A DNA stretch of 32,000 nucleotides, taken from assembly GCA_016699935.1 (NCBI GenBank), contig CP064992.1:660001-692000 (forward strand). Reading direction: 5' to 3'. Made by a program: the position numbers and the translations under genes. The DNA is from Candidatus Saccharimonadota bacterium. GTDB lineage: Bacteria > Patescibacteriota > Saccharimonadia > Saccharimonadales > UBA4665. Shown here piece by piece: positions 1,942 through 32,000 of this stretch. How positions within the stretch are numbered: the first letter of the stretch is position 1; every line of letters begins with the position of its first letter. The notes beneath the pieces were generated by a model. It saw only the letters and a program-made list of their open reading frames with translations. It was not told the DNA's origin and searched no databases.

Positions 1942-1950
1942 TGCTATACT
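1942..1950 (+). promoter_or_regulatory. Extended -10 promoter element (TGCTATACT) 9 nt upstream of the rpsU ATG
   Basis: It matches the TGnTATAAT class. An almost identical CCTGCTATAAT is found at 15711-15721. There is no SD between it and the ATG at 1960, so the transcript is possibly leaderless. Confidence 0.4.
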
Positions 1951-1959
1951 CCTACGGTT

Positions 1960-2175: not shown

Positions 2176-2193
2176 TCTGAGTTCGCAGGTCTT

Positions 2194-2643
2194 ATGATTA
2201 AGCAACGCCTACAAGATGATGTGAAGGCGGCCATGTTGGCTGGTGATTCGCTGCGGCTTGAAACCTTGCGTGGTTTGAAGAGTGCTATTCTCTATGCCGA
2301 AGTTGCGACTGGTAAGCGCGAAGATGGTCTTCCTGACGAAGAAATCCTGAACTTGTTTGCCAAAGAAGCCAAAAAACGACAGGAAAGCGCAGACCTGTAT
2401 GTACAGGGCGGTGCGCAGGATAAAGCGGATAAAGAGCTTGCAGAAAAAGTCATCATTGAAGCGTATTTGCCAGCACAGCTGAGCGAAGCGGAGCTCATGG
2501 CTGTTATAGAAGAAATATTGAATGAAGTGAAACCTACAGGCTTACAACAGATGGGTCAAGTCATAGGCCAAGTGAAATCAAAGGTTGGCAATACGGCTGA
2601 TGGCAGCGTAATAGCAAGAATAGTTAAGGAGAAACTATCATGA
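2194..2643 (+). CDS. yqeY: GatB/YqeY domain-containing protein
   Basis: The 149-aa product reads MIKQRLQDDVKAAMLAGDSLRLETLRGLKSAILYAEV...IIEAYLPAQLSEAELMAVIEE, which is the classic YqeY pattern. Confidence 0.85.
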   Translation: MIKQRLQDDVKAAMLAGDSLRLETLRGLKSAILYAEVATGKREDGLPDEEILNLFAKEAKKRQESADLYVQGGAQDKADKELAEKVIIEAYLPAQLSEAELMAVIEEILNEVKPTGLQQMGQVIGQVKSKVGNTADGSVIARIVKEKLS

Positions 2644-3185
2644 TACTACTGATGGGACCGGCTGGTGCTGGGAAAAAGTTTGCAAGGACACAAACTAGCC
2701 GATGAGCACGGCTACGCGTACATATCGACCGGTGAGATTTTCCGCCTATTTTTGACTGGTCATCGCCGCGCGGCTATGCTCGAGGGTAAGCTCATGACTG
2801 ATGAAGAAACCATAGACATGATTGATAAAGTCTTCGACATTATCGATGCAAGCGGTGAATTCATCCTGGATGGCTTTCCTCGTACGACTATGCAGGTTGA
2901 TTGGTTGATGAAACAGGTCAAAAAGGTCGGTTCGGTAAGCCTGTGGTTGTGCATATGGATGTAAGTGAGAAGGAGACCCGCCGTCGTTTGGGTTTGCGCG
3001 GTCGACCAGATGATACGCCCGAGGCAATTACCGAGCGCTACAAACTATATGCGAGCAAGACACAGCCGATTTTGCAGCAGTTCCGTGAAGGTGGCGTTGT
3101 GGTGCACGACGTCAATGCCGATGGTACTCCGACCAAAGTATATTTAAACATCGTCAATGCGCTCGGTATTCCCGAAAAGTTCTAA
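2640..3185 (+). CDS. adk: Adenylate kinase, with two frame breaks at A-runs
   Basis: The ATGA overlap with the yqeY stop gives MILLMGPAGAGK (P-loop). This continues in ORF 2665-2964 (SLQGHKLADEHGYAYISTGEIFR...ILDGFPRTTMQVDWL) and then ORF 2901-3185 (GRFGKPVVVHMDVSEKETRRRLGLRGRPDDTPEAITERYKLY). The breaks sit at A-runs 2673-2677 and 2920-2924. Confidence 0.85.
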
Positions 3186-4232: not shown

Positions 4233-4326
4233 TGCCTACATTGTTTGCAATTTGCAGCCCCCATCACAACAAGATCATAACAATAGTTGCATAGGGGCAA
4301 GCTCTAGCGCTATACTTAGGGACAAT

Positions 4327-5564
4327 ATGCGCGATGGCCATCCACCAGAACACTACGTCGGTCTAGATATCGGCACGTCCACTGTTCGCTGTGTGATTGG
4401 CACGCGTGATGTGAGCGACCCAGCCACAATATCTGTTATCGGACACGGCAGTAGTCCGAACCAGGGTATGCGCAAGGGCGTCGTCATGCACGTGGACGAG
4501 ACGGTTGAGGCCATTGTGCAGGCAATTACCGAGACTGAGCGTATATCTGGTGTGCGCATAGAACATGCCACGGTTAATGTGAACGGTGCGCATGTTAGCG
4601 GTATGAATTCGCGGGTACCATAGCCATTAGCGGCCCGAATCGAGAGATCACGCCAGAAGACCGTGACAGAGTGGAAGAAGCGGCGGCAATTGTAAAACTG
4701 CCGGCAAACCGCGAGATACTCCAGGTGTTTGCAAAGAACTACCGGCTCGACGGGCAAGATAACCTGAAAGACCCAGTTGGTATGCACGGCGTACGCCTGG
4801 AGGTTGACTGCCATATTTTGACGGCGGCGACTCCGAATGTGCGTAATCTTGAACTCGTGCTTGAAAAAGCCCAGGTGCGGCCACAGCACCGTACCGTGTC
4901 TTCGCTGGCCGCCGCAGAAGCAGTTCTTGACCGCAAGCAGAAAGAAGCTGGCACGGCCGTTGTGGATATTGGCGCAGGTACGACGAACGTTGTCGTTATA
5001 GAGGACGGCGAAATCCAGCATATTGCGGTCATACCCATGGGCGGCAACCACATTACAAACGACCTTGCGATTGGCCTAAAAACTGATCTTGACGTGGCCG
5101 AGCAGGTTAAGCTAAAACACGTCAATATAGGTGATACAACAGACAAAACCTATCGGATTATCGTCGATGGTGCGGGCTATACCTTTGAGCAGGCAGAGAC
5201 GAACATGATTGTTGAGGCGCGCGTAGAAGAGCTGTTTGAATATGTCGATAAAGAACTGCAAAAAATTCATCGTTCCCGAAAGTTGCCCGGAGGTGTTGTT
5301 ATCGTCGGCGGTAGTGCGGCTCTTCCTGGCCTCGCTGAGTTTGCCAAAGAGAGATTTCAGCTCCCAGCGCGGATCGGCAAGATACGAGGGCTTGCAGGGC
5401 TGGTCGATACTGTCGATGACCCAGCGTTTGCGACGGCCACTGGGCTAATGCTCCTGGACATCCTGCTGGCGCCATACGTCAATGACCAGGTTACCTCAAC
5501 TGATCTTTTTGGCGGAAGCTTGCAGTCTACTTTTGGTAAGCTGCTGAAACGCATCCGAAGCTAA
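4327..5564 (+). CDS. ftsA: Cell division protein FtsA, with one frame break at a G-run
   Basis: MRDGHPPEHYVGLDIGTSTVRCVIG (actin-fold phosphate-1 motif) is in ORF 4252-4623. It continues as GTIAISGPNREITPEDRDRVEEAAAI into ORF 4671-5564 (VVDIGAGTTNVVVIEDG, PMGGNHITNDLA, VIVGGSAALPGL). The break is at GGG 4613-4615. Confidence 0.88.
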
Positions 5565-17398: not shown

Positions 17399-18333
17399 TT
17401 AAGTTACCCAGCTTATACCGGTGAAGTTCAGGATGGTGTCACTGCGCCAGGTGTTCGTTTTGGGGTCGTAAATTTGGGTTGAAACCGTACCAGCGGGGAT
17501 ATCAAATGTACAAACTCGAGTTGGATTGCTTGAGTAGTCGTGCCAGCAATCCATCAGGTTGTATGTTTTATGCCCAGTCGTAGGGCTAGTAGAAATAGAG
17601 TTTGACCACACGGGCAAGTGGCCGGAAAAGGTAAATTTGACGTTCGGATTGTCTTTTATGATGGTGTTATACAGTGTTTGCGGGCTGGTGTCGCCGTAGC
17701 CGGCGTTACTGCCGCTAACGGCACCATTTCCCTCAAGGTACATGTGCGTCAAGATAATCACATTGTGGTTGGCATGGGACTGTATGACACCATTAGCCCA
17801 CGTATAAACGCTAGCGCGCGGGCAAAATTCTAGGTTCATTACCAACCAATGTAGCCCGGCCGCCTGGAATGTCCGGTAGGCATTGTCGACCTTTCCAGTC
17901 TCAAAAACACCTGCAATATTTGGGAAACGCGAGACCGGAAAGTAGCTGTTAAATGTGCTGGAATTACGCAGGTTGGTGTTGACATTGCCAGGTGCCGCAC
18001 CCCCGCCGTATTGCACTGCGGCGGTGTCATGGTTGCCGATGCAAAGTGCATAAGGGAAATTGACTGCATCTAGAATGGCGAGCCCAGTGTCGGCCCTTTC
18101 GTAGTGAGTGTGTGTTTCATCATCCCAGTCAACAAGGTCGCCGTTTTGCACCATAAACTTTATGTTCAGCGCCACCTGATTATCTCGTATCCAGGTCATG
18201 CGCTCGGCAAACATAGCGGTACGCACCGCGCTACTATTTTCTTGTTGCGTGTCAGGTACGGCAACGAACGTAAACTGAGTCTCCTCGAAAGCAGTGTACC
18301 TGCAGCAGCTTTAAATGATCGACGGGTAAACAT
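17399..18333 (-). CDS. Calcineurin-like metallophosphoesterase with an N-terminal RR tag, with one frame break near 18285
   Basis: An SD AAGGAG precedes the ATG at 18333, giving MFTRRSFKAAAGT. The sequence then continues (shifted) as ..EETQFTFVAVPDTQQE (motif I) into ORF 17399-18226. That ORF contains QNGDLVDW, CIGNHD, ILTHMY and FSGHL. Confidence 0.8.
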
Positions 18334-18402
18334 TCTGTGGGACTCACTCCTTTATGTAATTAGTATAGCTCATACGTTTTCATTGATGCTATAGTTGATT
18401 AC

Positions 18403-18765
18403 ATGGAAGAAAACAGCTGGTATCGCTACATAGTTTTGCTAGATGGGATCAAAAGTAACGAAGGGTTGTTGGCTCCACCTGAGCGAATTGCCTATGCCTT
18501 TCATACTTTTTCACTTCATGATGAGAACGTCTATGAACCGACAGGAGACGTCACCTTTATGTCGCCCAATCCGGACACAAAAGTCCTGGAAAGCAGCATA
18601 GAAAGAATGATTGATGCCGTTTTGCACCTTACGGTAAAGGCAAGGGTAATGAGGGTTGAAGACGTCTTGGCGCTACTAATGTCTGCCCAGGATGAGTTGT
18701 TGGAAATTGGTGGCTTCACCAGGAGCATAAACGATCTGAAGGCAACGTTACGTATATCCGGATAG
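18403..18765 (+). CDS. Hypothetical protein (120 aa)
   Basis: This is an intact ORF divergent from the phosphoesterase gene. I recognise no motif in it. Confidence 0.45.
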   Translation: MEENSWYRYIVLLDGIKSNEGLLAPPERIAYAFHTFSLHDENVYEPTGDVTFMSPNPDTKVLESSIERMIDAVLHLTVKARVMRVEDVLALLMSAQDELLEIGGFTRSINDLKATLRISG

Positions 18766-18792
18766 CGCTCTGCTGCATAGTGACCTACAGAT

Positions 18793-18850
18793 TGGCCCAA
18801 ACAGCGGCGAAAAAGTCTTTTACTGTCCCGATATGTCGATGGTATCGTAG
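18793..18850 (+). pseudogene. Relic 3' end of a paralogue of the 15747-17225 gene
   Basis: 18803-18850 matches 17178-17225 at 44 of 48 nt. It encodes SGEKVFYCPDMSMVS* versus SGENVFYCPDMSMVP*. There is no matching gene body upstream. Confidence 0.75.
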
Positions 18851-18905
18851 GGTATCGCGTAGGAAACATAGAAAATCCATTCTTATATACCATTAGCGTA
18901 TAGCG

Positions 18906-18911
18906 TATAAT
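18906..18911 (+). promoter_or_regulatory. TATAAT box 8 nt upstream of the SGNH-1 ATG (leaderless-type arrangement)
   Basis: The sequence agcgTATAATcgttgcatATG has no SD. Confidence 0.35.
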
Positions 18912-18919
18912 CGTTGCAT

Positions 18920-19805
18920 ATGGCAGCTTTTGCTAGGAGAATGTTATCGGGCGCTGCGGGTAGATATGATATCCCGGCTGAATTTGCAATCTGGGGCTCT
19001 TCATCTGCACAGGGCTACCTCGGTGGTGGTGTTAGTGTGGGTAGCGAGCTTCAAGCTCGGTTCGGTATTCCGACCTACAATGGAGGCGTTGGTGGACAGT
19101 GGTCAACCCATATTGCCGCCCGCCAAGGTGGGCGACCAGCTCTACTTTCTTTGAGCGGTGGCTCGATCCCAGCCTCTGGAACAATCGCAGCTACAACTCC
19201 GACAATGCACATACTGTCTTTTTCGGCGACGGGCAGCCTACAAGGGGTAAATGGCACGCTAGCTTCTTCGGGCGACCTCACGACCTACCAATTTACCCGT
19301 TCAGTTAGTGGTAGTGTCACGGGTGTACCAAACGATACGCCATTTATACCTACCCAGGGTAGCCAACGCCGCGCAAACGGGACAATTATATGGTCCGGGA
19401 AGAACGATATAACCAGTGGTTCTGGCAATATGACAATTTGTGCTGAATCTGTTGATTCTATGGTGGCATATCTCTTTGCCTAGAACTCGGTATCTTGTCA
19501 TGGGGCACTTCGCCAATAGCACAATGCCTGTCGGTAGCTCTGCTCGTACTAAGATGGACGCTGAAAACGCGCGACTAGCAAGTGTATACGGTGGTCGCTA
19601 CGTCGATGTCTTTGCCTATTTAAAGTCCAACCAGGTTTGGATAGATACGGGTGTAACGCCAACAGCAACCGACCTATCCGACCAAGCTGCTGGCGTTATA
19701 CCGACAAGCCTGCGCGCCGACACAGGCCATTTGAATGGAGTTGGTTATGCTGCGGTGGCCTTGTTGGTAGGCGACATGATTGTAGCCCAGGGCTGGCTCG
19801 GATAG
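18920..19805 (+). CDS. SGNH/GDSL-family hydrolase with an N-terminal RR tag, with one frame break near 19468-19478
   Basis: The product reads MAAFARRMLSGAAG. It has block I IWGSSSAQG, block II GGVGGQ and block III SGKNDI, then continues in ORF 19440-19805 with block V ADTGHLN. Confidence 0.75.
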
Positions 19806-19880
19806 TGACTAACGTTTCATGGTGATACCATCAAAATAATCTGGGCACATTATGAGTATAAAAGCTTAATCAGCTTAGGC

Positions 19881-19886
19881 TATAAT
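19881..19886 (+). promoter_or_regulatory. TATAAT box 7 nt upstream of the beta-helix gene ATG (leaderless-type arrangement)
   Basis: The sequence aggcTATAATaaatgctATG has no SD. Confidence 0.35.
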
Positions 19887-19893
19887 AAATGCT

Positions 19894-21812
19894 ATGAGCA
19901 TAGCAGCGAGGAGGATGCAAAGAGCAGCGCAGGTCACAGTCAGTGGCGGTGGTAACCCGACTGATGGCGCTGGTTCTTTGGCCGTAGGGGAGGCGAGCTA
20001 CGCCGTACCGGGAGATGCAATTTACGTCGCGACCGACGGCAATGACACGACTGGCACCGGTTTGGTCGGTGCGCCTATAGAACACTAGTGTGCAGCGATT
20101 ACGGCTGCGACTAGTGGCAAAACCATTGTTTTGAGAGCTGGCGTGTACCACGAGGGTGGCACAAATCACGTTTCTGCCATTGGTGTTCAGGTGAACAAAA
20201 ATAACCTCACCATTCAAAATTACCCGGGAGAAGCCGTTTGGTTTGACGGTTCTAGCGTTCAAACTGGTTGGACGCAGAGTGGTGCAACTTGGTCAATCCC
20301 ATGGACGAAAGTATTTGACCACAGCCCCACCAGCACTAGCGGGGCAGCTGATGGTTCTACGCCTGGCTGGCAGTGGATCAATGCAAACTACCCGGCGGCA
20401 CCGTTTCCTGAACAAGTTTTCATAGACGGCGTAGCGCAAACGCAGGTGACGTCGCTCGGCGCATGCGTTCCAGGCACGTTTTTTGTCCAGGGTACGACCA
20501 CTAACATGATATTTAGTCCGACATCGCTTTATATAGGCACGAACCCGGCTGGTAAAACGGTCAATGTGACCGACTTGCACAATTTCCTCAACCTAGGCGT
20601 TGGCTACACCGGGTTGACACTTCGTGGCTTTGGTGTTCGTCGCTACGGCAATGCCTTGCCGCAGTACTCAGCATTGCGTTTTGATGGCAACAACAATACA
20701 ACCAACTGTCTGCTAGAAAACGTTGTCATGGAAGATATTGCGACCATGGCTTTTAGCTCAAATCAATGCCATGGCAACGTGATTCGTCATGTTACCGTGC
20801 GGCGGGCTGGCTACCGTGCTCTCGGGGGATACCGTTCAGACAACCTGCTATTTGAAAAATTTCTTGTTGAATTCACCAACACAGAGAACTTCAACTCTTC
20901 GCCCGACTCTGGAGTTATCAAAGTTACCCAGTCGCAACATGTAACTGTTCACGGCAGCATCTTCCGGGATAACAAGTGCAAAGCCGTCTGGTTCGATATG
21001 TCTGTCTACGACATGAATGTCTATAACAATGACTTTTTACGCAACAAAGACACCGATGCGTTTTTCGAAATCAGTGGCACGGGATATGTGCAAACAATTT
21101 GTTTGTCGACAACCCAGCAGAGGCCATCAAAGTTAACAACACCGACAACATGGAGGTCTGGAACAACACAATTGTTCGTTGCGGCAGCCTGTCGCAGCGG
21201 CTCAATCCCGATACGTCCAATCATGGCAATGGCGATCGACGGCCACTGGCTGTCTACCAAGAAAATCGCCGGCCTGCCAATACAAGCTACGGGCTCGATG
21301 GCCGTTACCCGCTAGGTCACGCTATGTACGGCACCTTCATGACTTGGCAGATAAACGACATAGACATACACAACAACATTGTTGTCGATACGCCTGCCAA
21401 TGCTTACGCCCAGTTTTGTGTAGACGACCAGCAGGTTCAGTCTGGCGGTACAAACCAATTGCTCGCCTCATATGGCGTGGTCATGGATGGCAATGTTTTT
21501 CACTGGACGAGCGCACCGTCATCGTCTTACCCCTACCCGTATATTTTCCCACCTACAACCATTGGCGTATCGACACCGGTGGTCTATACCACTCATGCAG
21601 CAATGGTAAGTGCAACGTCAATAAACCCAAATGGAACCGAAATAAACCCCAAAAACTCTGGTACATCACTCCCGTCACCGATAGACAGTTCATACGTGGT
21701 CAAGAGAGCACATGCTGGCTTACACACCAATGCCACGGCTCTTGCCCCTACAATAGCAACGCTAATCGGCCAAACCGCTGGCACCAAACACGCCGGCGCT
21801 TGGCGCAGCTAG
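19894..21812 (+). CDS. Right-handed parallel beta-helix (pectate-lyase-fold) protein with an N-terminal RR tag, with at least 3 frame disturbances
   Basis: The product reads MSIAARRMQRAAQV, then DAIYVATDGNDTTGTGLVGAP..ITAATSGKTIVLRAGVYHEGG. It has repeated turn motifs (NCLLENVVMEDI, GNVIRHVTVRRAG, VHGSIFRDNKCKAV, NVYNNDF, EVWNNTIV, DIHNNIVV). An in-frame TAG at 20086-20088 lies in a patch where PYRTL reads in another frame. A shift near 21090 joins ORF 20131-21315 to ORF 21099-21812. Confidence 0.75.
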
Positions 21813-21827
21813 AAAAGCAAAGAAATT

Positions 21828-23054
21828 ATGTCAATCAGCGCCCGACGGTTACAACGAGTCCAGCACATCGCATCGGAGCAGCCGTTTGGTGTTTTATATG
21901 GTCGGACGATTACGCTCAATCAGCATACATTGGCTGACACGCCTGCTGTTATTAGCGCTGGTACGTCACGGTTTACCTACAAAATTCAGCAAAATGTGAC
22001 AAAAATTCGCCTGACCTTCATGAACTGGTATAACTCTAGCTACAAAGCTACGCAATATTGCACCGACAATCCAAATACGGCAGCGTTGACCGTGCAGGCT
22101 CTTGTCTTCGGGCCAGGGTCTTCTACCGGAACGGCCGTGACCGTTAGCGGTAGTGCTTCGTGGGCTGTAAATGGCGGCGGATGGGTACAGACAGACTGGA
22201 TAGCCGTACCGATGAATGCTGGCGACTTATTCGATGTGCAAACCTACGTTTCAGGTACACAGTGGTACCCAACGCTCGTCTATAGCGGTTGGTGGACGAG
22301 TGGTTCCAATCAAGCGACTGGCGGTTCTGCAAAAATTACCAGTGGTGCAGGCGTGAGCACCGGAATCTACATGCCCGCAGTCATAACTGGCGACCACTCA
22401 AGCAGTGCAGTACTTATCATGGGAGACTCAATTGCTTATAACTCAGCGCTGCCAAGCATCGGCTATATCGAAAAAGGTTTGGATGGCAGCTATGGCGCTA
22501 TAAACGCGGCAGTCGCTGGCGATCGGCTGTATTGGGCGTTGGATGGTACGCACCGCGATGAAAGCTGGTTGTTCAACGCCGATGCGAGCACGGTGGTCGT
22601 CGAATATGGACGCAACGATCTGAGCGACGGTCGCACACTTGCGCAGTTGCAGGCCAATCTTATCACGCTCTGGACGCAGCGAAGCGGTACTGGTCAGCGC
22701 GTCATTCAGACAACCATTACGCCCAATACGAACAGTACCGACTCGTGGGCGACCACGGCCAACCAGACCGTTGTAAATGCAACCGTCGAAGGTCGCCGCG
22801 TGCAACTAAATGATTGGCTGCGAGCCGGCGCACCGACAGTCGGTGGCGTAGCTGTCGCACCCGGCACGGGCGGGGCATTACTGGCTGGCCAAGCGGGACA
22901 CCCACTGTACAACTACTGGGAAATAGCCGACCATGCTGAATCAGCGCGCAACTCTGGCATATGGAAAGTCGGCTACACGGGCGATGGCCTCCACCCTACC
23001 GCAACCGGCATAAACGCACTGTCTCTAGGTGTCGATCACGCAATGATTGTCTAG
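21828..23054 (+). CDS. Two-domain SGNH/GDSL hydrolase (N-terminal beta-sandwich-like domain) with an N-terminal RR tag
   Basis: The intact 408-aa product reads MSISARRLQRVQHI. It has block I LIMGDSIAYN, block II AVAGDR, block III EYGRNDL and block V GDGLHPT. Confidence 0.8.
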   Translation: MSISARRLQRVQHIASEQPFGVLYGRTITLNQHTLADTPAVISAGTSRFTYKIQQNVTKIRLTFMNWYNSSYKATQYCTDNPNTAALTVQALVFGPGSSTGTAVTVSGSASWAVNGGGWVQTDWIAVPMNAGDLFDVQTYVSGTQWYPTLVYSGWWTSGSNQATGGSAKITSGAGVSTGIYMPAVITGDHSSSAVLIMGDSIAYNSALPSIGYIEKGLDGSYGAINAAVAGDRLYWALDGTHRDESWLFNADASTVVVEYGRNDLSDGRTLAQLQANLITLWTQRSGTGQRVIQTTITPNTNSTDSWATTANQTVVNATVEGRRVQLNDWLRAGAPTVGGVAVAPGTGGALLAGQAGHPLYNYWEIADHAESARNSGIWKVGYTGDGLHPTATGINALSLGVDHAMIV

Positions 23055-23357
23055 CTTTCCTGACCTACACTTTACTTTATTGACCACTAAAGAAAAACGA
23101 CCGAGCTGGTTCCGTCTGGCCTGGGAATATCCGTAGCGGCTTCTTCTTACGCCGCCGCTACCACCGATCCCGGTGGCTCGGTTACAACGGGGAGGGCAAA
23201 AAGTGAGCGTGGGTCAGCTAGCTTTCCTTTAGCGGACTACCGTGTGCTATATTTATAAGCAGTATGAGAGAGTCGATTCATAATATTGTGGTAGTTGTAG
23301 CTTGGGATCTCGCTGCACAATCAGCAAGAGTAGAACAGTTGGGTTGTAGGTGACCAT

Positions 23358-24207
23358 ATGACGTTTAGTCGCAGAATGGCTTCAGCTGCAAATCCGAGGC
23401 CGACCTATTATGGAGCCTGCCCAACCAATCCTGGTGGTGATTCGCTAGCCGCAGCAACGACTGTTCTTACTAAATGGGGTACCCGGGTTTCGGTGAGGCA
23501 ATTTACGGGTGCTACGCTCACGCCGCCCAATCATCCTGCGGGAGCATCGGTTGTTCATACTACCTACAAACCTAGTGTCGCAGCGGTATTAAATGGTTCT
23601 CTAGATGCTGATATAACGACACTCGTTTTAGGTACACCCGATGGCGATATTATTGAATTTTGGCACGAGCCTGATAATGATGGGCTGACTGGCCAGGGTA
23701 TAACTGATATGATTGACTGCAAAAATTATCTCTATGACATGAAGCAAACATTGAAGCCTGGAGTGCGGGTTGCGGCTACGATGACAGGCGGTTTTTTTGC
23801 CTCGTATACATCGCAAGCAACGCGTGATTTGTGGGATGGGCTTAGGGGTGACCTCGTGGGTGTCGATTGCGATGGGGTGCATGATGCAACCGGCCCCACC
23901 TACGATATGACGTATGCCGATGAGCTTACAAATGTTCTTGCGTTCATGAAAAAATCATGCCCACGGTTGGTTTGGATGGACCATACCAGAAATGGGCACG
24001 TCACGGCAGCCGTGGGATACCGACGGAACGGCACGTGCGCTATGGTTCGAGACGCAGTTCCAGCTGCTTGTAGCAATGCATCCATATGCAATCATGCTGT
24101 ATGACTACAATACGGCCGCTCACAATCTGCCTGATGACTACAATGCGGTCTATGCCACAACACCCGAATTTGATGTATGGAACGCTGCGATTGCGACCAA
24201 CCCATAA
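23358..24207 (+). CDS. Clan GH-A-like (GH26/GH5-like) TIM-barrel glycoside hydrolase with an N-terminal RR tag, with one frame break at A-run 23949-23954
   Basis: The product reads MTFSRRMASAANP, with FWHEPDND (acid/base-type HE/NEP motif). After the shift it reads NHAHGWFGWTIPEMG (nucleophile-type motif) and continues into ORF 23992-24207. The family assignment comes from motifs only. Confidence 0.55.
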
Positions 24208-24980: not shown

Positions 24981-27900
24981 ATGATTAAACTAAAACGCAC
25001 ACTGCTAGTTTTGCTCGCGTGCACCTCTCTGGTCTTTGACCAAAGAGGGTATTTGTGCCTATCGAGACCTAAGTTGCCTGGTTCTGGATTCGGGTTTCGG
25101 ATGTAGGTTTTCGACTTTGGGCTGTAACGTTTACTTTGCTCATCCTACCCCTGTTTTTCCTCACGCGCGGGTACACGGGCGTGCAACGCGCCTATGCCGC
25201 CACCAGTGACAACCTGAACTTCCAAGCCCGTCTGGGAAAACACTGCTGGTGCCATTGCCCCAGATGGTGACTACAACGTTGAGTTCAAGCTCTACAACGC
25301 TTCCAGCAGTGCAGGTTCTTCCCAGGGCTCTTGTACCGGAGATGCTGCTTGTCTCTGGACAGAAACCAGAACAGGAGCAAACAAGGTGAGAGTCGTCAAT
25401 GGCTACCTGACCGTCAATCTTGGCTCTGTCACCGCTTTCCCTGGCACCATGCCATGGGATCAACAGCTTTACCTCTCACCATGAACATTGGAGGTACCGG
25501 TGGACCTAGCTGGGACGGAGAAATGAACCCCAGGCTGAAGATGACAGCTGTCCCATACGCCTTCAACGCCAAGACAGCCAGCCAAACAGTCAGTAGCTCA
25601 GGAGCCAACCTCGCCACCCTGAGCATCGCCGCTCCAACTAGTGGCAATCAGACGTTCACTATCCAGGACCAGGGTGCTGCTGGCAATTACAACATTCTAA
25701 CGCAAACCCAGATAGCGCCTGGTTCATCCAAAACCAGTTTGGAGCGGCTCAGTCAACCTCAAACTTCTGGCTATCTGGAACGGGCAGGGCAGATACGGCG
25801 TTCCAGGCGCCGCTATTTGACAGCGGTACGGCGGCGGCGTGGGATAGGCACGACCAATGCGACGTCGATTAGCAGGCAAGTCAAGCATCACCACGACAGT
25901 ACAGGGGCCATTCGTTGCGAATGGCTCTCGGTTTACGAACAATGGCTCGACGCTACTAACGGGCTCGACACTCAGTGATTTTGCAGCCAGTGGGGCGATT
26001 GGGACGGCCGCAGCAACGGTGGATGCTTGAACGACATTTGTCATCCCTCAGACAACGGCTGGGCGAACGCTAAACTTGCCAACTCCTACAACGGGCACGG
26101 CTGGACGCCTGGCATATGTGCTGAACACGGGCAGCACGGCCTTCACCATGCATACTGTCAGCATCCAGGCAGGCAAAGCGCAGACATATATATATGATGG
26201 CAGTACCTGGACGGCTACCAATATAGATGGTGCGGGAATGGCGTCACCTTTGTGGGCTCTATCGACACCCAGACCAAGAGTGCTGATGGTGCCGTGGTAT
26301 CGGGTAACGGTATATACCTTCAAACGGCCGACGGGACAAATCCAGGTCTCGTCAGCACCGGCTTACAAACATTTGCTGGCAACAAGACGTTTTCGGGTAG
26401 CATTACTGCCAATTCCGGTGCATCGGTTACTGGCGCTACCACAATAAATACCTCCGGTACCGCAAACACCCAGATAGGTAATGGTAGTACTGGAACAATT
26501 ACTCTTGGTGATGGTTCTACCGGAGCTATAGCTATTCAGTCTGGTGCGAGCATAGGCCTCACCGGTACCACCAACATAAACACTTCAGGTGCAGCCACCA
26601 CAAGCATCGGTACTGGTACGGGCAATAACAGCATCGGTAACACCACTGGTACCCTTGGGCCTCACAGGTAGCACTGTTACAGTAGCCGGCAATACATCTA
26701 TTAACACCACTGGCACTAGTACTACCACCATCGGCAGCGCCACGGCCGGTGCCGTTAGCATTACATCTAATGCAGCTAGTAGCTTCACCACCAACACTGG
26801 TGCTCTAACCCTGACCAGTGCCGCTGCTGCCACCTGGGGCACTAACGCTGGTCTCCTCACCCTGCAAGGGGCGGGCGGCACCACCGTGACATCTACCGCT
26901 GGTACAACATCGAGTGGCGTCACTATCTCCACCGGCAATGCCAGCGCTGGAGCCAGTGGTAACATAACCATAGATACTGGTACCTACACCAGTGGTACTC
27001 CTACTGTGAACATCGGAACAGGTGTTGCTGGTGCAGTTACCATTGGACGAGCTGCTACGACGACTACGATACAAGGAACCCTCAGCATTACTCCTCAGAC
27101 GTCAAGCAGTACTACACTCCTATGTACAAACGGCGGTGTCGTCAGTACCTGTGATGCCACAGTTCTTGCCCCAACCGCTACTAACTTCATCCAGAACCAG
27201 AACGCTTCCGACCAAACAGCAGATCTCCGTATCTCTGGCACTGCCCGGGCAAATACCAGCGTCCTTACCCCACTGCTGGATACTGCCACTGCCGCCGCTC
27301 TCTACATCGGTACCACCAATGCTTCCAGCATAGTGCTACAGAAGAACGTTACTATTGCTGCTAACCAAAACATAACCTTCACTGCAGGGTCAGGTAACTT
27401 CGACCAATCTGCCTCCACTGGTACCTTCGCCACTGGCACTGGTGCCGTCAGTCTGAACGGAGACACCACTGTCGCGAGCGGCAAGAACCTCACGGTCACG
27501 AGTGGCACCACCAGCCTGACTGGTACGACGAACATAAATACCTCAGGTACTGCTACGACTACCATAGGTAATGCTTCTGCGACGAACAACATCACAGGTA
27601 CAAACACCGTTCTGGGTGCCACTAACATAAACACCACCGGTTCAGCTAATACCAACATAAACACTGCTACGAACACGGGCAATACTGGCATCGGTAACAC
27701 CACTGGTACCCTAGGCCTCACAGGTAGCACTGTTACAGTAGCCGGCAATACATCTATTAACACCACTGGCACTAGTACTACCACCATCGGCAGCGCCACG
27801 GCCGGTGCCGTTAGCATTACATCTAATGCAGCTAGTAGCTTCACCACCAACACCGGTGCTCTAACCCTGACCAGTGCCGCTGCTACCACCTGGAGCACAA

Positions 27901-30900
27901 CAGCTGGTGCCCTAACACTGCAAGGTGCAGCTGGTGCTACCATTCGGTCGGCTGCTGGTGCGACATCCAGTGATGTCACCATAACTACCGGCGATGCCTC
28001 AGCTGGAGCCAGTGGTAACATCACCATAGATACTGGTACCTATACTAGCGGTACTCCTACTGTCAACATTGGAACAGGTGTCGCTGGTGCAGTTACCATC
28101 GGACGAGCTACCACCACCACTACTATCCAAGGCTCTACCAAAGTAACACCTCAGACATCGACCAGTACTACACTCCTATGTACAAACGGCGGTGTCGTCG
28201 GTACCTGTGATGCCACAGTTCTTGCCCCAACCGCTACTAACTTCATCCAGAACCAGAACGCTTCCGACCAAACAGCAGATCTCCGTATCTCTGGCACTGC
28301 CCGGGCAAATACCAGCGTCAAGCCCCACTGCTGGATACTGCCACTGCGGTACCTCTGAGTATCGGGACCGGCAATGCCGGCAACATTACCATAGGTAAAA
28401 ACACCACAACAGTACTCGTGCCAAGTGCGCTTTCCTAGAAGGCACCTGGCAGCTCAAACACGCGTATGGCAATAGGAGGTACCCTAAGTTCCGTCGATAC
28501 GGCTGCCCAATATGGTAACTCACAGAACCAACTGAGCTTTAACCCCACGGGCGGATCTCTTACCGAAATATACGGTACTGTCACCAGTGCCAACCATATC
28601 TGGTAGTAACTACAACGTAAGTAGTTACTATGGTGGCTTTAACCGTATTGACACGGGTGCTGGTTACACTGGGCAGATCACAAATGGCTACGGACTGCGG
28701 ATTGGTGCGCTCCTAGCCTAAACGGCAACCCAGGAGCAGGCACGGCTAAAATCCTTAACTACAGAGGACTGAACGTAGATGGCACTACCAACAGGGGGCA
28801 ACACGAGCGGTACGATAAATAACTACGGCATACAGCTCCAAAAGGTAGTAGTGCAACCGCTGGAGCAGGTGGTGCACTCAACAACTACACCGCACACATC
28901 ACTGTCCCAACCGGCGGTGCTACCGGCACCACCACAAACTATGGTTTGTACATTACCGGTAACAGCGGTGCTGCTGCAACGCAATATGCCATCTACAATA
29001 ACTCCGGCAGACAACTACCTCCAGGGTAATACATCTATCGGTGCTGCAAACTGCAACCTAGTGGGTATGCGCTCAATGTCAGCGGCACAGCTGCTGCGAG
29101 CACCAACGTCCTTACCCCACTGCTGGATACTGCCACTGCCGCCGCTCTCTACATCGGTACCACCAATGCTTCCAGCATAGTGCTACAGAAGAACGTTACT
29201 ATTGCTGCTAAGCAAAACATAACCTTCACTGCAGGGTCAGGTAACTTCGACCAATCTGATAACTCCACTGGTACCTTCGCCACTGGCACTGGTGCCGTCA
29301 GTCTGAGTAGAGACACCACTGTCGCGATGGCAGCGGCAAGAACCTCACGGTCACGAGTGGCACCACCAGCCTGACTGGTACGACGAACATAAATACCTCA
29401 GGTACTGCTACGACTACCATAGGTAATGCTTCTGCGACGAACAACATCACAGGTACAAACACCGTTCTGGGTGCCACTAACATAAACACCACCGGTTCAG
29501 CTAGTAGTCCAACATAAACACTGCTACGAACACGGGCAATACTGGCATCGGTAACACCACTGGTACCCTAGGCCTCACAGGTAGCACTGTTAGGTAGCCG
29601 GCAATACATCTATTAACACCACTGGCACTAGTACTACCACCATCGGCAGCGCCACATTGGTGCCGTTAATTACATCTAATGCGGCTGGTAGCTTCACCAC
29701 CAACACCGGTGCTCTAACCTGACCAGTGCCGCTGCTACCACCTGGAGCACAACGGCTGGTGCCCTAACACTGCAAGGTGCAGCTGGTGCTACCATTCGGT
29801 CGGCTGCTGGTGCGACATACCAGTAACTACCGGCGATGCCTCAGCTGGAGCCAGTGGTAACATCACCATGAATACTGGTACCTATACAGCGGTACTCCTA
29901 CTGTCAACATTGGAACAGGTGTCGCTGGTGCAGTTACCATCGGACGAGCTACCACCACCACTACTATCAGGCTCTACCAAAGTAACACCTCAGACATCGA
30001 CCAGTACTACACTGCTTTGTACTAATGCCGGTGTCATCTCTACCTGTGATGCCACAGTTGTTGCCCCAACAGCTACTAACTTCATTCAGAACCAAACAGC
30101 CTCCACCCAAACAGCTGGCTTCAAGATCGATGGTACTGGTACAGCCGGTACCTTAGTCAGTACGACTGCTGTCAAGCCCGCTGTTTGACACCGCCACAGG
30201 CGTAGCTTTAAACATCGGTACCACCAATGCCACCCAGATTAACCTCAATCAAAACACTGTCGTGGCAGCTGGTAAAACCATCCGTATCACAGGCGACACT
30301 CGTACCAACATCAATGCCATTGGTTCACCCACAGAAGGCATGATGACGTACGACACAACAAACAAGCAGCTCCTCACCTACTCTAACGGCAAATGGCAAG
30401 CTGACCGAAGCGAAGCCATCTTGGTTGCCGCCAGTGACAGCTCAGATGCCGACAAAGCCTCAGCTGACTATGTAGCTGATGGTAACACTGGTGCAGCCCT
30501 TGATGGTGACCAAGTGCAGATCAACGACGCTCTTACGGCTGCCAGTGCTTCAGGTACCCGTAAGACCGGTAAGGTTTACCTCTTCGCTGGTACGTACACT
30601 GCTGATGCCACTATCCTCATCCCGAACGGTGTTACCCTCGCTGGTAGTGGTCAAAGCTCAGTCATAAAACTGGCAGACATTGATGCGACCGACAACCTCA
30701 TCGAAAACAGTGACACGGCAACTGGTGCCAACATCACTATTCGTGACCTCCGCCTAGAAGGTCAACGCAACCTCAACACGGCTGGCACCCAGCACGGTAT
30801 CTACCTGCTCGGCATGGGCAAAGAAACCAGCGGCAACAACGCCGTCAACGGCGCCTTCATTAGTAACGTCACCGTCTACTACTTCCGCACCGATGGTATC

Positions 30901-32000
30901 CGCCTCGATACCTCCTCTCACAACACGATTACCAGCAGCATCTTCCGAGACAATGAGCAGTATGGTCTCTACATCCTGAATGTAAACTCCAAGTTCAACA
31001 GCATCACCGCTAACCAGTCAGAAGGCAACAACGTCGACGGCTTCCGACTCGAATCTGGCTACAGCAACACCTTCAGTGGTAACGTTGCCTACGACAATAC
31101 TTCGGCCGGTATGGCTATAGCCGGCAGCGCCAATAACAACAACATCGTCAATAACAACTTCCGCGGCAACAATGCCTATGGTATCTATGTCGGTGCTTCG
31201 ACCCTGAACAACATCAGCTCAAACAACATCCGGGGTGGTAGCACCTACGGTATCTATGTTTCTGGCTCAGACGGCAACACGGTAACGACAACAACATCTA
31301 TGACACTGGTAGCGCAACAACCAACAACGCTATCTACTTGACTGATTCTGATCGTAACAGCATTAATGGCAACGTGATCGATGACACCTCAGCATCCACT
31401 AACAACTACGCCATCAATATCTTCAATAGCACCAGCAACAGTAACTACATATCTGGAAACATCCTCGGCGATAACGGTGCCGGTGTCACAGCTACCATTA
31501 ACGATGCTGCGACAGACACTACCTACGGTGGCCAGGCTACCGCCCTCAGCAGCACCGACATCCTCTTCAAACAGTCGGCTTCAACGGCCGCCTTCCAGAT
31601 CAAAATGCCAATGGCACCAGTATATTGAACATTGACTCAACAAACGGAGAACTTGAAGTCGGTAGCTACAATGGTGGTACTAACCCGGTAGCCGGTAAGA
31701 TAGTTATAGCTACTACTGCCAATGCCAATACTGTCACCCTGCAGTCGTCTACTCAGACTGGTAACTACACCCTCAGCATCCCAGCCTAACAGCTAATGCC
31801 AATGCATGTACCGACAACGCTATCTGCTCTGGTTACCTTGGCACTAGCACTGGTGTTCAGCTACAAGCTGCTACTCCTGGCACAGCTCAGACAGGTCACT
31901 TCAACATTACAGGTACAGGGATAGCTGGCACTAGCCTCCTCACCCCACTGCTGAACACCGCCACAGCCGTAGCCCTGAACATAGGCACCAACAATGCCTC
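24981..32000 (+). CDS. Giant repetitive surface fibre/adhesin-like protein (more than 2300 aa, continues past the window end). It is fragmented into many frames in this assembly.
   Basis: The N-terminal hydrophobic region ends ..FTLLILPLFFLTRGYTGVQRAYA|ATSDNLNFQARL. After that, one continuous reading can be followed through ORFs 25331-, 26076-, 26252-, 26589-28358, 28779-, 29180-, 29868-, 30262-31341 and 31338- by +/-1 shifts. The recurring module is FIQNQxASxQTAxxxISGTxxA..TPLLDTATAxxLxIGTTNAxxIxL, with Thr/Gly/Asn-rich runs (GNTSINTTGTSTTTIGSATAG). A PbH1-type beta-helix domain sits at about 30480-31560 (GKVYLFAGTYT, ITIRDLRLEG, NNIVNNNFRGNNAYGIYV, NNISSNNIRGGSTYGIYV). The start codon is uncertain. 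Confidence 0.75.
26661..28320 (+). repeat. Tandem near-identical repeat inside the giant gene (unit 1056 bp = 352 codons; 1.6 copies)
   Basis: CTCACAGGTAGCACTGTTACAGTAGCCGGC starts at 26661 and again at 27717. There are long identical stretches, for example around 26661-26810 vs 27717-27866 and 27150-27260 vs 28206-28316. A more diverged middle lies between them. Confidence 0.9.
29108..30170 (+). repeat. Third, indel-riddled copy of the same 1056-bp unit (tail half then head half)
   Basis: 29108-29573 matches 27261-27716. 29574-30170 matches 26661-27260 / 27717-28320. It differs by several small insertions/deletions and substitutions, for example TGTTAGGTAGCC vs TGTTACAGTAGCC and GCCACATTGGTGCCGTTAATTAC vs GCCACGGCCGGTGCCGTTAGCATTAC. 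Confidence 0.85.

What the first reader, a model, noticed from the sequence alone, without database searches (positions are those of the whole stretch)
18286..23392. Shared short N-terminal twin-arginine tag without a hydrophobic core on five neighbouring enzymes
Five island proteins begin with the same short motif:
- MSIAARRMQRAAQV (19894)
- MSISARRLQRVQHI (21828)
- MAAFARRMLSGAAG (18920)
- MTFSRRMASAANP (23358)
- MFTRRSFKAAAG (18333, minus strand)

The pattern is M-x(2-4)-R-R-[MLS]-x-x-[AGV].

The two closest copies conserve the peptide while using different codons: Ser tca vs agc, Ile atc vs ata, Arg-Arg cga cgg vs agg agg, and Arg cga vs aga. Selection therefore acts on the peptide and not on a DNA or RNA site.

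None of the tags is followed by a Sec- or Tat-type hydrophobic h-region. Catalytic motifs start within about 20-45 residues, for example GSSSAQG in SGNH-1 and FVAVPDTQ in the phosphoesterase.

This looks like a non-canonical sorting, export or docking tag shared by the whole enzyme set.
Basis: seen in the sequence. Interest (0 to 1): 0.7.

Follow-up and report, generated by a model that had tools for sequence, protein, structure and literature searches.

The report
Shared arginine tag replacing signal peptides
Five neighbouring enzymes of a Saccharibacteria (ultrasmall parasitic bacterium) genome start with the same ten-residue arginine motif, which sits exactly where related enzymes in other bacteria carry a secretion signal, so it is probably an undescribed address label for enzymes that work outside the cell.

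Summary

**What is there**
- The window is a long-read-assembled Candidatus Saccharibacteria chromosome.
- All five N-termini read as reported.
- An in-frame stop lies no more than 8 codons upstream of each, so no hidden signal peptide is possible.

**How widespread the motif is**
- Consensus: M-S-x-x-[AST]-R-R-L-Q-[RQ]-[AS].
- It is conserved in orthologues down to about 53% identity, while the next 8-20 residues vary freely.
- It is encoded by different codons and follows unrelated 5' regions.
- It also heads at least three further enzyme families in related genomes: 57 tags in 8 families.

**Why it looks like an address label**
- It has no hydrophobic core and matches no curated signal model.
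- In all three families with non-Saccharibacteria bacterial homologues (phosphoesterase, SGNH-1, GH-like), those homologues carry Sec, lipoprotein or Tat signal peptides at the same position.
- Phage homologues carry virion-attachment modules there instead.
- Two natural gene fusions lost the tag once it became internal.
- Phage contigs lack the tag.

**Verdict**
Most likely this is a lineage-specific N-terminal targeting peptide for extracytoplasmic enzymes. The receptor and route are unknown. Export itself is inferred, not shown. A decayed Tat signal, a docking peptide and a stability or translation role remain open.

The parts
19894..19935 (+). RR tag MSIAARRMQRAAQV. It heads the right-handed beta-helix (Pel9A-like) enzyme gene, 19894-21812, which is split by assembly indels near 20070-20090 and about 21100.
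   Evidence: Orthologues start MSIAARRLQR, MSIGTRRLQR, MSRFARRGQQ, MTGFARRLQR and MSISARRLQK. A TATAAT box lies 7 nt upstream of the ATG.
21828..21869 (+). RR tag MSISARRLQRVQHI. It heads SGNH-2 (GDSL esterase, 21828-23054, an intact ORF of 408 aa).
   Evidence: In 13 orthologues R6 is invariant and R7 and Q9 are at least 90% conserved, while residues 10-17 are variable. Distant homologues are Gordonia and Arthrobacter phage minor-tail esterases.
18920..18961 (+). RR tag MAAFARRMLSGAAG. It heads SGNH-1 (18920-19805, frameshift near 19470).
   Evidence: Ten orthologues are tagged, and distant homologues carry lipoprotein or Sec signal peptides at the same place. A TATAAT box lies 8 nt upstream of the ATG.
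23358..23396 (+). RR tag MTFSRRMASAANP. It heads an uncharacterised, possibly glycosidase-like enzyme (23358-24207, frameshift near 23970).
   Evidence: Tagged relatives are P0286, P0288 and P0310. Other relatives carry Tat or Sec signals or phage N-terminal modules.
18286..18333 (-). RR tag MFTRRSFKAAAGTLLS. It heads the calcineurin-like metallophosphoesterase (17399-18333, minus strand, frameshift just after the tag).
   Evidence: About 20 orthologues start MRSRRxLxAAA...ETQFTF, and homologues in other phyla carry Sec or Tat signal peptides. In the AF2 model of orthologue P0124, residues 1-9 have pLDDT below 50 and the first strand starts at residue 22.
15747..17225 (+). Untagged island gene. 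It is a tail-fibre-like protein with the N-terminal motif DVxFSNPxDGQxIQYNxxTAKWNN and a beta-helix-like C-terminal part. It has no signal peptide.
   Evidence: Family members sit next to RR-tag genes in L002, L008 and L010, but stand alone between grpE and dnaK in L001 and L030.
18403..18765 (+). Untagged small acidic ORF (120 aa, weak DUF1697 match). It is transcribed divergently from the phosphoesterase and is a conserved partner of that gene.
   Evidence: The same arrangement occurs in L038, L041, L043 and L045.

Best explanation
The five N-termini are copies of a short linear peptide motif specific to environmental Saccharimonadia. The consensus is M-S-x-x-[A/S/T]-R-R-L-Q-[R/Q]-[A/S].

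**Anatomy**
- The motif is the extreme N-terminus of the protein.
- It carries no acidic residue.
- It has no hydrophobic core.
- A variable, flexible linker of about 8-20 residues follows it, and then the first strand of a folded enzyme.

**Where it occurs**
It is attached to at least eight unrelated families of enzymes of extracytoplasmic type:
- two SGNH esterases
- beta-helix lyase/hydrolase-like proteins
- a purple-acid-phosphatase-like phosphoesterase
- an uncharacterised enzyme that starts FGACPxNPGG
- three further beta-helix-like families

**What it stands in for**
Homologues of these enzymes elsewhere are either secreted through Sec, lipoprotein or Tat signal peptides, or carried on phage tails.

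**Most likely function**
The tag is a targeting signal, read as a peptide by a dedicated receptor. It would direct these signal-peptide-less enzymes out of the Saccharibacteria cytoplasm or onto the cell surface, probably to act on the envelope of the actinobacterial host.

**Shown**
- The motif itself and its conservation.
- Its restriction to the N-terminus.
- Its lack of a hydrophobic region.
- Its positional equivalence with signal peptides.
- Its absence from phage homologues.

**Inferred**
- That the tag acts in targeting or export.
- That the enzymes act outside the cell.

**Unknown**
- The receptor and the translocon. Candidates are the conjugation-type T4SS with its VirD4-like coupling protein, a modified Tat system, or an undescribed route.
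For: 1. **Same place as signal peptides.**
   - Phosphoesterase: about 20 Saccharibacteria orthologues read MRSRRxLxAAAx(4-8)ETQFTF[IV]A[IV]PDTQ. Homologues from Bacteroidota, Planctomycetota, Myxococcota and Actinomycetota have Sec signal peptides, or Tat signals (P0160, P0147), ending just before the same FTxxVxPDTQ strand.
   - SGNH-1: tag plus about 10 residues precede YNIPxxxAxWGSSSAQG. P0257, P0259, P0261, P0262 and P0263 have lipoprotein or Sec signals there.
   - GH-like family: tagged members are P0286, P0288, P0310 and the window gene. P0306, P0307 and P0325 carry Tat signals. P0274, P0276, P0277, P0282 and P0284 carry Sec signals or anchors.
2. **Cross-family consensus beyond 'RR'.** Fifty-seven tags from 8 families were compiled:
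   - [AST] at position -1 in 48
   - L at +2 in 34
   - Q at +3 in 32
   - R or Q at +4 in 28
   - A or S at +5 in 37
   - no acidic residue before about +8
3. **Selection on the peptide.**
   - Arg, Ser and Ile codons differ between copies.
   - Upstream DNA is unrelated, and the 5' contexts are a mix of leaderless-like, Shine-Dalgarno and coupled starts.
   - The motif is conserved to about 53% overall identity while the linker is not.
4. **Needed only at the N-terminus.** In two independent beta-helix-SGNH-2 fusions (L008, P0007), the internal tag is replaced by an acidic, proline-rich linker.
5. **Not part of the fold.** In the AF2 model of P0124 (mean pLDDT 93), residues 1-9 are below 50, residues 10-20 are about 65, and strand 1 starts at residue 22.
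6. **A cellular feature, not a phage one.**
   - Viral-contig homologues of SGNH-2 and the beta-helix enzyme are only 26-54% identical over the aligned segments and are untagged.
   - A DNA pattern for the tag gave 21 matches in viral contigs. None begins a long ORF. This is near my own rough estimate of about 30 matches by chance, which assumes a collection of about 60 Gb.
7. **Ordinary signal peptides exist in the lineage**, so the tag is a distinct class.
   - L041 3647 reads MRSIIRRIVATAATSALGLLGAVTLSTPAHA.
   - Pam pilus components of a Saccharimonadia parasite all have Sec signals (bioRxiv 10.64898/2026.03.03.709456).
Against: - No experiment or localisation data. Export is inferred from what the homologues do.
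- No candidate receptor or translocon gene is consistently linked to the tagged genes in the loci examined.
- A positively charged N-terminus without a hydrophobic segment matches no known bacterial export signal. By the positive-inside rule it would tend to be retained in the cytoplasm.
- The phosphoesterase tags (for example TRRSFKAAAGTLL) look like truncated Tat signals. A few orthologues have KR, RK or RQ instead of RR. Part of the pattern could therefore be decay of an ancestral signal.
- The proteome-wide frequency of the motif could not be measured, because whole genomes were not available to the tools.
- The loci were fetched through the tagged families, which is an ascertainment bias.
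Confidence: 0.5

Rival explanations
1. Atypical Tat signal. The tag would still be a twin-arginine signal used by a TatA/TatC system of these larger-genome environmental Saccharimonadia, with an extremely reduced or dispensable hydrophobic region.
For: - The RR pair is almost invariant and is preceded by a small residue, as in [ST]-RR-x-F-L-K.
- Phosphoesterase tags read TRRSFKAAAGTLL, RRLLQAAASAAGL and RRAQQAAAGALL. These are the start of a Tat signal cut short.
- Homologues of two families carry genuine Tat signals (P0160, P0147, P0306, P0307, P0325).
- TatA and TatC were reported in some freshwater Saccharimonadia (PMC9166423).
Against: - No hydrophobic region. Max KD(10) averages 0.99, against 1.55-2.28 for the Tat signals of homologues. 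Charged residues appear within 3-10 residues after RR in most families, for example RRLQRVQHIASE and RRLQRTSRVAQEE.
- Positions +2 and +3 are L and Q, not x-F-L.
- No A-x-A cleavage region.
- No match to any NCBIfam model at E <= 1. That library is expected to include the Tat-signal model, from my own knowledge.
- Tat was reported absent from nearly all Saccharibacteria analysed in PMC6031116.
- In studied Tat systems the hydrophobic region is required for insertion into the TatBC receptor (established knowledge).
Confidence: 0.12
2. Docking peptide. The tag would not cross a membrane. It would plug the enzymes into a supramolecular structure, in the way phage tailspikes and fibres are anchored by their N-termini. 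Candidate structures are a phage-tail-like particle, the tail-fibre-like proteins of the same islands, or a pilus or surface fibre.
For: - SGNH-2, the beta-helix enzyme and the GH-like enzyme have phage homologues in which the equivalent N-terminal position is a virion-attachment module.
- Tagged genes often lie beside tail-fibre-like, LamG-like and other phage-fibre-like genes that also lack signal peptides.
Against: - No capsid, tail-tube, sheath or baseplate genes lie near any tagged gene. The islands are embedded in housekeeping genes.
- The tag was not found in viral contigs.
- Tail-fibre-like genes occur without tagged genes (L030, L031) and tagged genes without them (L003, L038, L041, L043).
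- Ten residues is short for a stable anchor.
- Docking alone does not explain replacement of signal peptides in families with no phage link, such as the phosphoesterase.
Confidence: 0.13
3. Not a targeting signal. The enzymes would be cytoplasmic in Saccharibacteria, for example acting on imported host material. The motif would serve protein stability or turnover (an N-terminal degron or protection), or translation of often leaderless mRNAs. Alternatively it would be the slowly decaying n-region of lost signal peptides.
For: - Several tagged genes appear leaderless, with TATAAT 6-9 nt before the ATG.
- Loss of the tag in fusions is equally expected for a start-linked function.
- Some orthologues have weakened RR (KR, RK, RQ).
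- No export machinery has been identified.
Against: - Independent relics would not converge on one consensus (ARRLQR[AS]) in eight unrelated families.
- Tagged genes also have Shine-Dalgarno or coupled starts, so the motif is not tied to leaderless initiation.
- Codon variation argues against an RNA-level role.
- All tagged families are extracytoplasmic-type enzymes. Among the 150 other genes sampled, including housekeeping genes, only 4 met even the loose rule and none carried the full consensus.
Confidence: 0.2
4. Chance or annotation artefact. Arginine-rich N-termini are common and the start codons are mis-assigned.
For: - Loose RR patterns occur on about 3% of other genes.
- The assembly is error-rich.
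Against: - In-frame stops lie 3-8 codons upstream of all five starts.
- The same starts occur in independent assemblies and in a finished relative.
- The motif is conserved across orthologues.
- The matrix trained on other genomes recovers the window tags.
Confidence: 0.02

Closest known systems
Twin-arginine (Tat) signal peptides
   Same: - N-terminal position.
- A nearly invariant RR pair preceded by a small residue.
- Placed in front of enzymes that fold on their own.
- Homologues of two tagged families use true Tat signals.
- The phosphoesterase tags look like the first 12-15 residues of one.
   Different: - No hydrophobic region of 12-20 uncharged residues.
- No x-F-L-K after RR; the tag has L-Q-R instead.
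- No A-x-A cleavage region.
- No hit to curated signal models.
- Total length to the mature domain is only about 17-25 residues.
Sec and lipoprotein signal peptides (n-region)
   Same: - A positively charged extreme N-terminus.
- The same position relative to the mature domain as in homologues.
   Different: - No hydrophobic core and no lipobox cysteine.
- The n-region of Sec signals is not sequence-conserved across families, whereas this motif is.
N-terminal secretion signals of type III / flagellar export substrates
   Same: - Short and N-terminal.
- Disordered.
- No hydrophobic core.
- Attached to otherwise unrelated cargo.
   Different: - T3SS signals have no sequence consensus.
- No injectisome or flagellar T3SS genes were seen in the loci examined here, and to my knowledge none has been described in Saccharibacteria.
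N-terminal marker motifs of polymorphic T6SS effectors (MIX, FIX, RIX), from my own knowledge and not tested here
   Same: - A shared N-terminal marker on many unrelated effector domains.
- It identifies cargo of one secretion machine.
- RIX is arginine-rich.
   Different: - Those are domains of about 50 residues or more.
- They are bound to T6SS spike components.
- T6SS was reported as not detected in freshwater CPR genomes (PMC9166423).
Xanthomonadales T4SS antibacterial effectors (X-Tfes with XVIPCD), from my own knowledge
   Same: - Envelope-degrading enzymes without signal peptides.
- Delivered by a T4SS to a neighbouring bacterium through a shared recognition module.
- Saccharibacteria have an essential T4SS with VirD4-like coupling proteins (PMC12857230; bioRxiv 10.1101/2025.01.22.634366).
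   Different: - XVIPCD is a C-terminal domain of about 120 residues, not a 10-residue N-terminal motif.
- No link between the tag and the T4SS was tested here.
N-terminal virion-attachment modules of phage tail fibres, tailspikes and minor tail proteins
   Same: - They occupy the same position in phage homologues of SGNH-2, the beta-helix enzyme and the GH-like enzyme.
- The architecture is modular: an anchor followed by an enzyme.
   Different: - Phage modules are tens to hundreds of residues long.
- They occur in phage genomes.
- The tag is 10 residues, chromosomal, and absent from viral contigs.

Membership tests
Tat signal peptide | Twin arginine near the N-terminus | tested here: met
   Of 57 compiled tags, 51 have RR, 5 have KR and 1 has RK. 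One further phosphoesterase orthologue, outside the 57, has RQ.
Tat signal peptide | Consensus [ST]-R-R-x-F-L-K: hydrophobic residues at the second and third positions after the RR pair | tested here: not met
   After RR the commonest residues are L (34 of 57), Q (32 of 57), then R or Q (28 of 57).
Tat signal peptide | Uncharged, moderately hydrophobic region of about 12-20 residues after the RR motif | tested here: not met
   - Max KD(10) averages 0.99, against 1.55-2.28 for the Tat signals of homologues.
- The higher values among tags come from the first strand of the mature domain.
Tat signal peptide | Recognition by a curated Tat-signal profile | tested here: not met
   NCBIfam scan of 8 tagged proteins at E <= 1 gave no N-terminal hit of any kind. 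That the library contains a Tat-signal profile is from my own knowledge.
Tat signal peptide | tatA and tatC present in the same genome | not testable with these tools
- The literature is mixed: absent from most Saccharibacteria (PMC6031116), present in some freshwater Saccharimonadia (PMC9166423).
Sec (type I) signal peptide | Hydrophobic core of at least about 7-8 residues followed by a signal-peptidase site | tested here: not met
   By contrast, homologues P0146, P0153 and P0259, and the Saccharibacteria protein L041 3647, have clear cores.
Lipoprotein signal peptide | Lipobox ending in Cys | tested here: not met
   No Cys in the first 20 residues of any tag. SGNH-1 homologues P0257, P0259 and P0261 do have LAAC- or LPAC-type lipoboxes.
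Type IV prepilin leader | Short basic leader ending in Gly, followed by a hydrophobic helix of the F-T-L-I-E type | tested here: not met
   No such segment in any tag. A true pilin in L038 (2787-3218) starts MGKYSHGFTLVEVATAIIIIG.
Phage tail-fibre or tailspike N-terminal anchor | Encoded in a phage or prophage together with tail structural genes | tested here: not met
   - Flanks are housekeeping genes or IS elements.
- No tagged ORF was found in viral contigs.
Functional N-terminal targeting motif (generic) | Conserved across orthologues and across unrelated cargo, dependent on N-terminal position, on a flexible linker | tested here: met
   conservation; lost when internal; disordered extension.
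Functional N-terminal targeting motif (generic) | Cargo is actually relocated, and relocation depends on the motif | not testable with these tools
   Needs fractionation, secretome or reporter experiments.

The most novel reading that the evidence does not exclude
The ARRLQR tag is the address label of a so far undescribed, Sec- and Tat-independent protein delivery route of Saccharimonadia. Through it the epibiont would export folded envelope-degrading enzymes against its actinobacterial host. Many of these enzymes were captured from bacteria and from actinophages. One candidate route is loading by the VirD4-like coupling protein of the essential conjugation-derived T4SS. The tag would then define the first recognisable effector repertoire of a CPR bacterium.
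Probability: 0.25. Interest if true: 0.9.

Novelty: new variant of a known kind. Interest (0 to 1): 0.68.

Why it matters
- **A missing step in a parasitic lifestyle.** Saccharibacteria and other CPR bacteria live by attaching to and exploiting host bacteria. How they deliver proteins to the host is unknown. Their T4SS is essential, yet no effector or effector signal has been identified (PMC12857230; bioRxiv 10.1101/2025.01.22.634366).
- **A practical handle.** A ten-residue motif marks signal-peptide-less esterases, beta-helix glycan-active enzymes and phosphoesterases, and stands in for Sec, lipoprotein and Tat signals. Candidate secreted or host-directed enzymes could be listed from sequence alone.
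- **A way to find the machine.** The machinery that reads the motif could be sought by phylogenetic profiling.
- **A simple test.** RR to KK substitutions and reporter fusions would test the role directly.
- **An evolutionary point.** Enzymes related to actinophage tail proteins appear to have been re-addressed for cellular use by swapping the N-terminal module.
- **If the tag is only a decayed Tat signal.** It would still document how signal peptides erode in reduced genomes.

Tried and rejected
- **AF2 of SGNH-2 (13 orthologues).** The model was poor (pLDDT 49.8) and unusable.
- **Profile search with the 16-18-column tag alignment (A2).** At E <= 10 in 5.8 billion sequences a 10-residue motif cannot score, so it was not run.
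- **Metagenome scan with the tail-fibre-like family.**
  - The 3-sequence alignment gave 8 loci, none with tagged neighbours.
  - This showed the fibre-like gene is not obligatorily linked to tagged genes.
- **Phage N-terminus MAYMKDSTGRRLDSF as a possible relative of the tag.** It occurs once per phage, is not shared between neighbouring genes, and has a different consensus. Dropped.
- **Viral-contig searches.** Searches with SGNH-2, the beta-helix family, family C and the tail-fibre-like protein gave only distant untagged relatives or nothing.
- **DNA pattern scan for the tag in viral contigs.** The second gave only chance-level hits.
- **Domain and structure searches.** Pfam, PHROGs and NCBIfam gave no model for the tag and no annotation for families A-C, the GH-like enzyme or the fibre-like protein. 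The PDB sequence search, run on the GH-like and beta-helix proteins only, found no informative relative.
- **Shared mobile 5' cassette (promoter plus the first codons).** Rejected, because upstream DNA and codons differ.
- **Hidden upstream signal peptide.** Rejected.
- **Literature.** I found no description of this motif or of leaderless secretion in Patescibacteria.

Full report
**Source and quality of the window**

The SGNH-2 protein encoded at 21828-23054 is 100% identical to an NCBI protein. That protein comes from a 'Candidatus Saccharibacteria bacterium' on a 1,226,308-bp contig.

The flanks hold priA, map, ftsA, ftsZ, nrdR, a B12-type ribonucleotide reductase, ileS, a glutamine amidotransferase and rplU. 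So this is a chromosome, with an island of about 8.5 kb (15747-24207) between the amidotransferase gene and rplU.

Essential genes are split by frameshifts: ftsA, the reductase and ileS. So are four of the five tagged genes. I read these as indel errors of a long-read assembly, not as pseudogenes. Intact versions exist in other assemblies and in a finished relative, CP064993.1 = L045.

The five N-termini are present at 19894, 21828, 18920, 23358 and 18333 (minus strand), as written. In-frame stops lie 3-8 codons upstream of each start, so no signal peptide can be hidden upstream.

The two most similar copies share eight residues and use different codons at six of them.

Domain assignments:
- calcineurin-like phosphoesterase
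- two GDSL/SGNH hydrolases
- a right-handed beta-helix (Pel9A-like) protein
- one family without any Pfam hit

Two island genes lack the motif: the tail-fibre-like gene at 15747 and the small ORF at 18403.

| Family | Starts seen in Saccharibacteria orthologues |
|---|---|
| SGNH-2 | MAIGTRRLQR, MLARRLQQ/R, MSYARRLQS, MSGFSRRLQA, MSIFARRLQT, MSRFARRLSF |
| Beta-helix | MSIAARRLQR, MSIGTRRLQR, MTGFARRLQR, MSISARRLQK, MSRFARRGQQ |
| SGNH-1 | MSGFTRRMFLG, MSRSARRLQQ, MTFGRRLQRA, MSIAVRRLQRS |
| Phosphoesterase | MRSRRSLFAAA, MRSRRLLQAAA, MLKRRAQQAAAG and similar |
| GH-like | P0286, P0288, P0310 |

- In the SGNH-2 alignment R6 is invariant and R7 and Q9 are at least 90% conserved. The following eight or so positions have no consensus.
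- For one beta-helix orthologue (MSRFARRGQQ) the gene caller had chosen a start further downstream.
- In loci L008 and L010 three further families without annotation begin the same way: MTLGRRLQRV / MTRTRRAYQA, MSIAARRLVRG, and MSIAARRLSRG / MSISARRLSRA.

Compiling 57 tags from eight families gives M-S-[IGR]-[FA]-[AST]-R-R-L-Q-[RQ]-[AS]-[AS]. There are two to five residues between Met and RR, and no acidic residue before about +8.

A matrix trained only on tags from other genomes ranks the window's tags at the top of 793 candidate starts.

**It is a peptide signal, not a nucleic-acid one**

Arg codons vary freely (CGA CGG, AGG AGG, AGA CGC and others). The 50 nt upstream are unrelated. Translation-start contexts differ:
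- TATAAT boxes 6-9 nt before the ATG, suggesting leaderless mRNAs
- Shine-Dalgarno sites
- stop-start coupling

**It is not a canonical signal peptide**

- The most hydrophobic 10-residue window in the first 35 residues averages 0.99 (Kyte-Doolittle). Tat, Sec and lipoprotein signals of homologues score 1.55-3.72. The few higher values among tags come from the first beta-strand of the mature enzyme.
- The residues after RR (L-Q-R) do not fit the Tat x-F-L-K pattern.
- No NCBIfam model of any kind hits the N-termini at E <= 1.
- Ordinary signal peptides do exist in the lineage. L041 3647 is one example. All components of the Pam pilus of a Saccharimonadia parasite are reported to carry Sec signals.

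**The key comparative result**

In each of the three families with bacterial homologues outside Saccharibacteria, those homologues carry a signal peptide where the tag sits.

- *Phosphoesterase.* Dozens of Bacteroidota-type, Planctomycetota, Myxococcota and Actinomycetota proteins have Sec signals, and P0160 and P0147 have Tat signals. All end just before the conserved FTxxVxPDTQ strand. The Saccharibacteria proteins have tag plus a 10-15-residue Ala/Ser/Pro linker plus ETQFTF.
- *SGNH-1.* Lipoprotein or Sec signals in P0257, P0259, P0261, P0262 and P0263 precede the catalytic block: VAVWGSSSAQ in the first four and the equivalent VTWGDSLTAG in P0263.
- *GH-like family.* Tat signals occur in P0306, P0307 and P0325. 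Sec signals or anchors occur in P0274, P0276, P0277, P0282 and P0284. These precede FGACP directly or through a linker of about 20-250 residues.

Other homologues of SGNH-1, SGNH-2, the GH-like enzyme and the beta-helix enzyme are phage proteins. Examples are the Gordonia and Arthrobacter phage 'minor tail protein' / esterase. In these the same position holds a long virion-attachment region.

So the tag occupies the slot of an N-terminal targeting module.

**Three further observations fit an N-terminal address label**

1. A confident AF2 model of a tagged phosphoesterase (P0124, pLDDT 93) leaves residues 1-9 unstructured (below 50). The fold starts at residue 22. The fold resembles purple acid phosphatases and SMPDL3-type phosphodiesterases; to my knowledge these are largely extracellular or lumenal enzymes.
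2. In two independent fusions of the beta-helix and SGNH-2 genes (L008, P0007), the now internal tag has been replaced by an acidic, proline-rich linker.
3. The tag is not a phage feature.
   - Viral-contig relatives are only 26-54% identical over the aligned segments and are untagged.
   - A DNA pattern for M-S-x-x-A-R-R-L-Q-R gave 21 matches in the viral collection. None starts a long ORF. The count is near my own rough chance estimate of about 30, which assumes about 60 Gb.

**What I could not establish**

- No gene is consistently linked to tagged genes.
- The tail-fibre-like family often neighbours them, but it also stands alone between grpE and dnaK. Tagged genes also occur without it.
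- I could not scan a whole proteome or test for tatA/tatC in these genomes.
- The literature says Tat is absent from most Saccharibacteria (PMC6031116) but present in some freshwater Saccharimonadia (PMC9166423).
- A T4SS with VirD4-like coupling proteins is widespread and essential, and no effectors are known.
- I found no paper describing this motif.

**Interpretation**

The best-supported reading (about 0.5) is a lineage-specific N-terminal targeting peptide for extracytoplasmic, probably host-envelope-directed enzymes. The reading machine is unidentified.

The phosphoesterase tags look like Tat signals cut short (TRRSFKAAAGTLL). This suggests the motif may have evolved from the Tat n-region.

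Rivals:
- Continued use of Tat despite the missing hydrophobic region: about 0.12.
- A docking peptide for a fibre or tail-like structure: about 0.13.
- A non-targeting role or decaying relic: about 0.2. Convergence of eight unrelated families on one consensus argues against the relic version.
- Chance or mis-annotation: essentially excluded.

**Verdict**

The interpretation as a non-canonical sorting or export tag is plausible and now has comparative support, but it remains unproven. The motif belongs to no described signal class that I could test. I rate it a new variant of N-terminal sorting signals, with a real chance (about 0.25) that it marks a new delivery route of CPR epibionts.

Noticed in passing
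window 4252-5564, 7976-9501, 11746-15010, and the island genes: Frameshifts split essential genes (ftsA, ribonucleotide reductase, ileS) as well as four tagged genes. This fits long-read assembly indels. The public protein records of this genome are truncated accordingly: P0121, the phosphoesterase, is 275 aa without its tag, and P0243, SGNH-1, is 187 aa.
   Followed up: partly
window 15747-17225; L001 714-2090; L030 9635-11152; L010 4491-7491; L008 4291-8044: A tail-fibre-like family lacks both a signal peptide and the RR tag. Its N-terminal motif is SDVxxSxPxxGQxLxYNxxTxKWVN and its C-terminal part is beta-helix-like. It is repeatedly inserted between grpE and dnaK of the heat-shock operon, sometimes in two or three divergent tandem copies.
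   Followed up: partly
window 18403-18765; L038 9563-9955; L041 9558-9929; L043 9548-9901; L045 17884-18246: A small acidic protein of 117-130 aa, with a weak DUF1697 match, is always divergently transcribed right next to the tagged phosphoesterase. This looks like a conserved two-gene unit of unknown meaning.
   Followed up: partly
window 18899-18919 and 19876-19893; L045 9980-10000 and 10915-10935; L010 9980-10000; L038 9985-10000: TATAAT-like -10 boxes lie only 6-9 nt upstream of the ATG of several tagged genes. This suggests leaderless or nearly leaderless mRNAs. Other tagged genes have Shine-Dalgarno sites or stop-start coupling.
   Followed up: no
L045 (CP064993.1) 8709-9887 and 15830-16810: In the closest finished relative, the same enzyme genes sit at a different chromosomal site, next to rpsO and pnp. 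They are in a different order and are flanked and interrupted by IS (rve) transposase genes. The island is mobile or rearranging.
   Followed up: partly
L008 8057-11185; P0007: A natural fusion joins the beta-helix enzyme and SGNH-2 into one ORF of 1042 aa. It is seen in two independent records. The internal RR tag is replaced by an acidic, proline-rich linker.
   Followed up: yes
L013 3900-6278, L015 7743-9038, L007 8827-10455; P0019, P0023, P0033, P0059, P0098, P0100, P0112: Many actinophage-type SGNH esterases or minor tail proteins begin with a conserved MAYMKDSTGRRLDSF (or MGILDAP...) peptide. It occurs once per phage. It is probably a virion-attachment N-terminus and is unrelated in consensus to the Saccharibacteria tag.
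   Followed up: partly
window 25000-32000: A giant Thr/Ser/Gly/Asn-rich surface-protein-like coding region is heavily frameshifted. It has direct repeats spaced about 1056 and about 1850 nt apart at 84-100% identity. A beta-helix segment lies at 30262-31341.
   Followed up: partly
L008 487-1902 / 1903-3006; L010 170-892 / 889-2037: A LamG- or lectin-like untagged protein is directly followed by a tagged gene (family A). In L010 the start overlaps the upstream stop by 4 nt, and in L008 it follows it immediately. This suggests translational coupling of a binding protein with a tagged enzyme.
   Followed up: no
L038 1-3218: T2SS/T4P genes (T2SSF, a T2SSE ATPase with an MshEN domain, a prepilin-type N-methyl protein) lie about 7-10 kb from a tagged phosphoesterase in one genome. 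This was not seen in the other loci, so it is probably coincidental.
   Followed up: no
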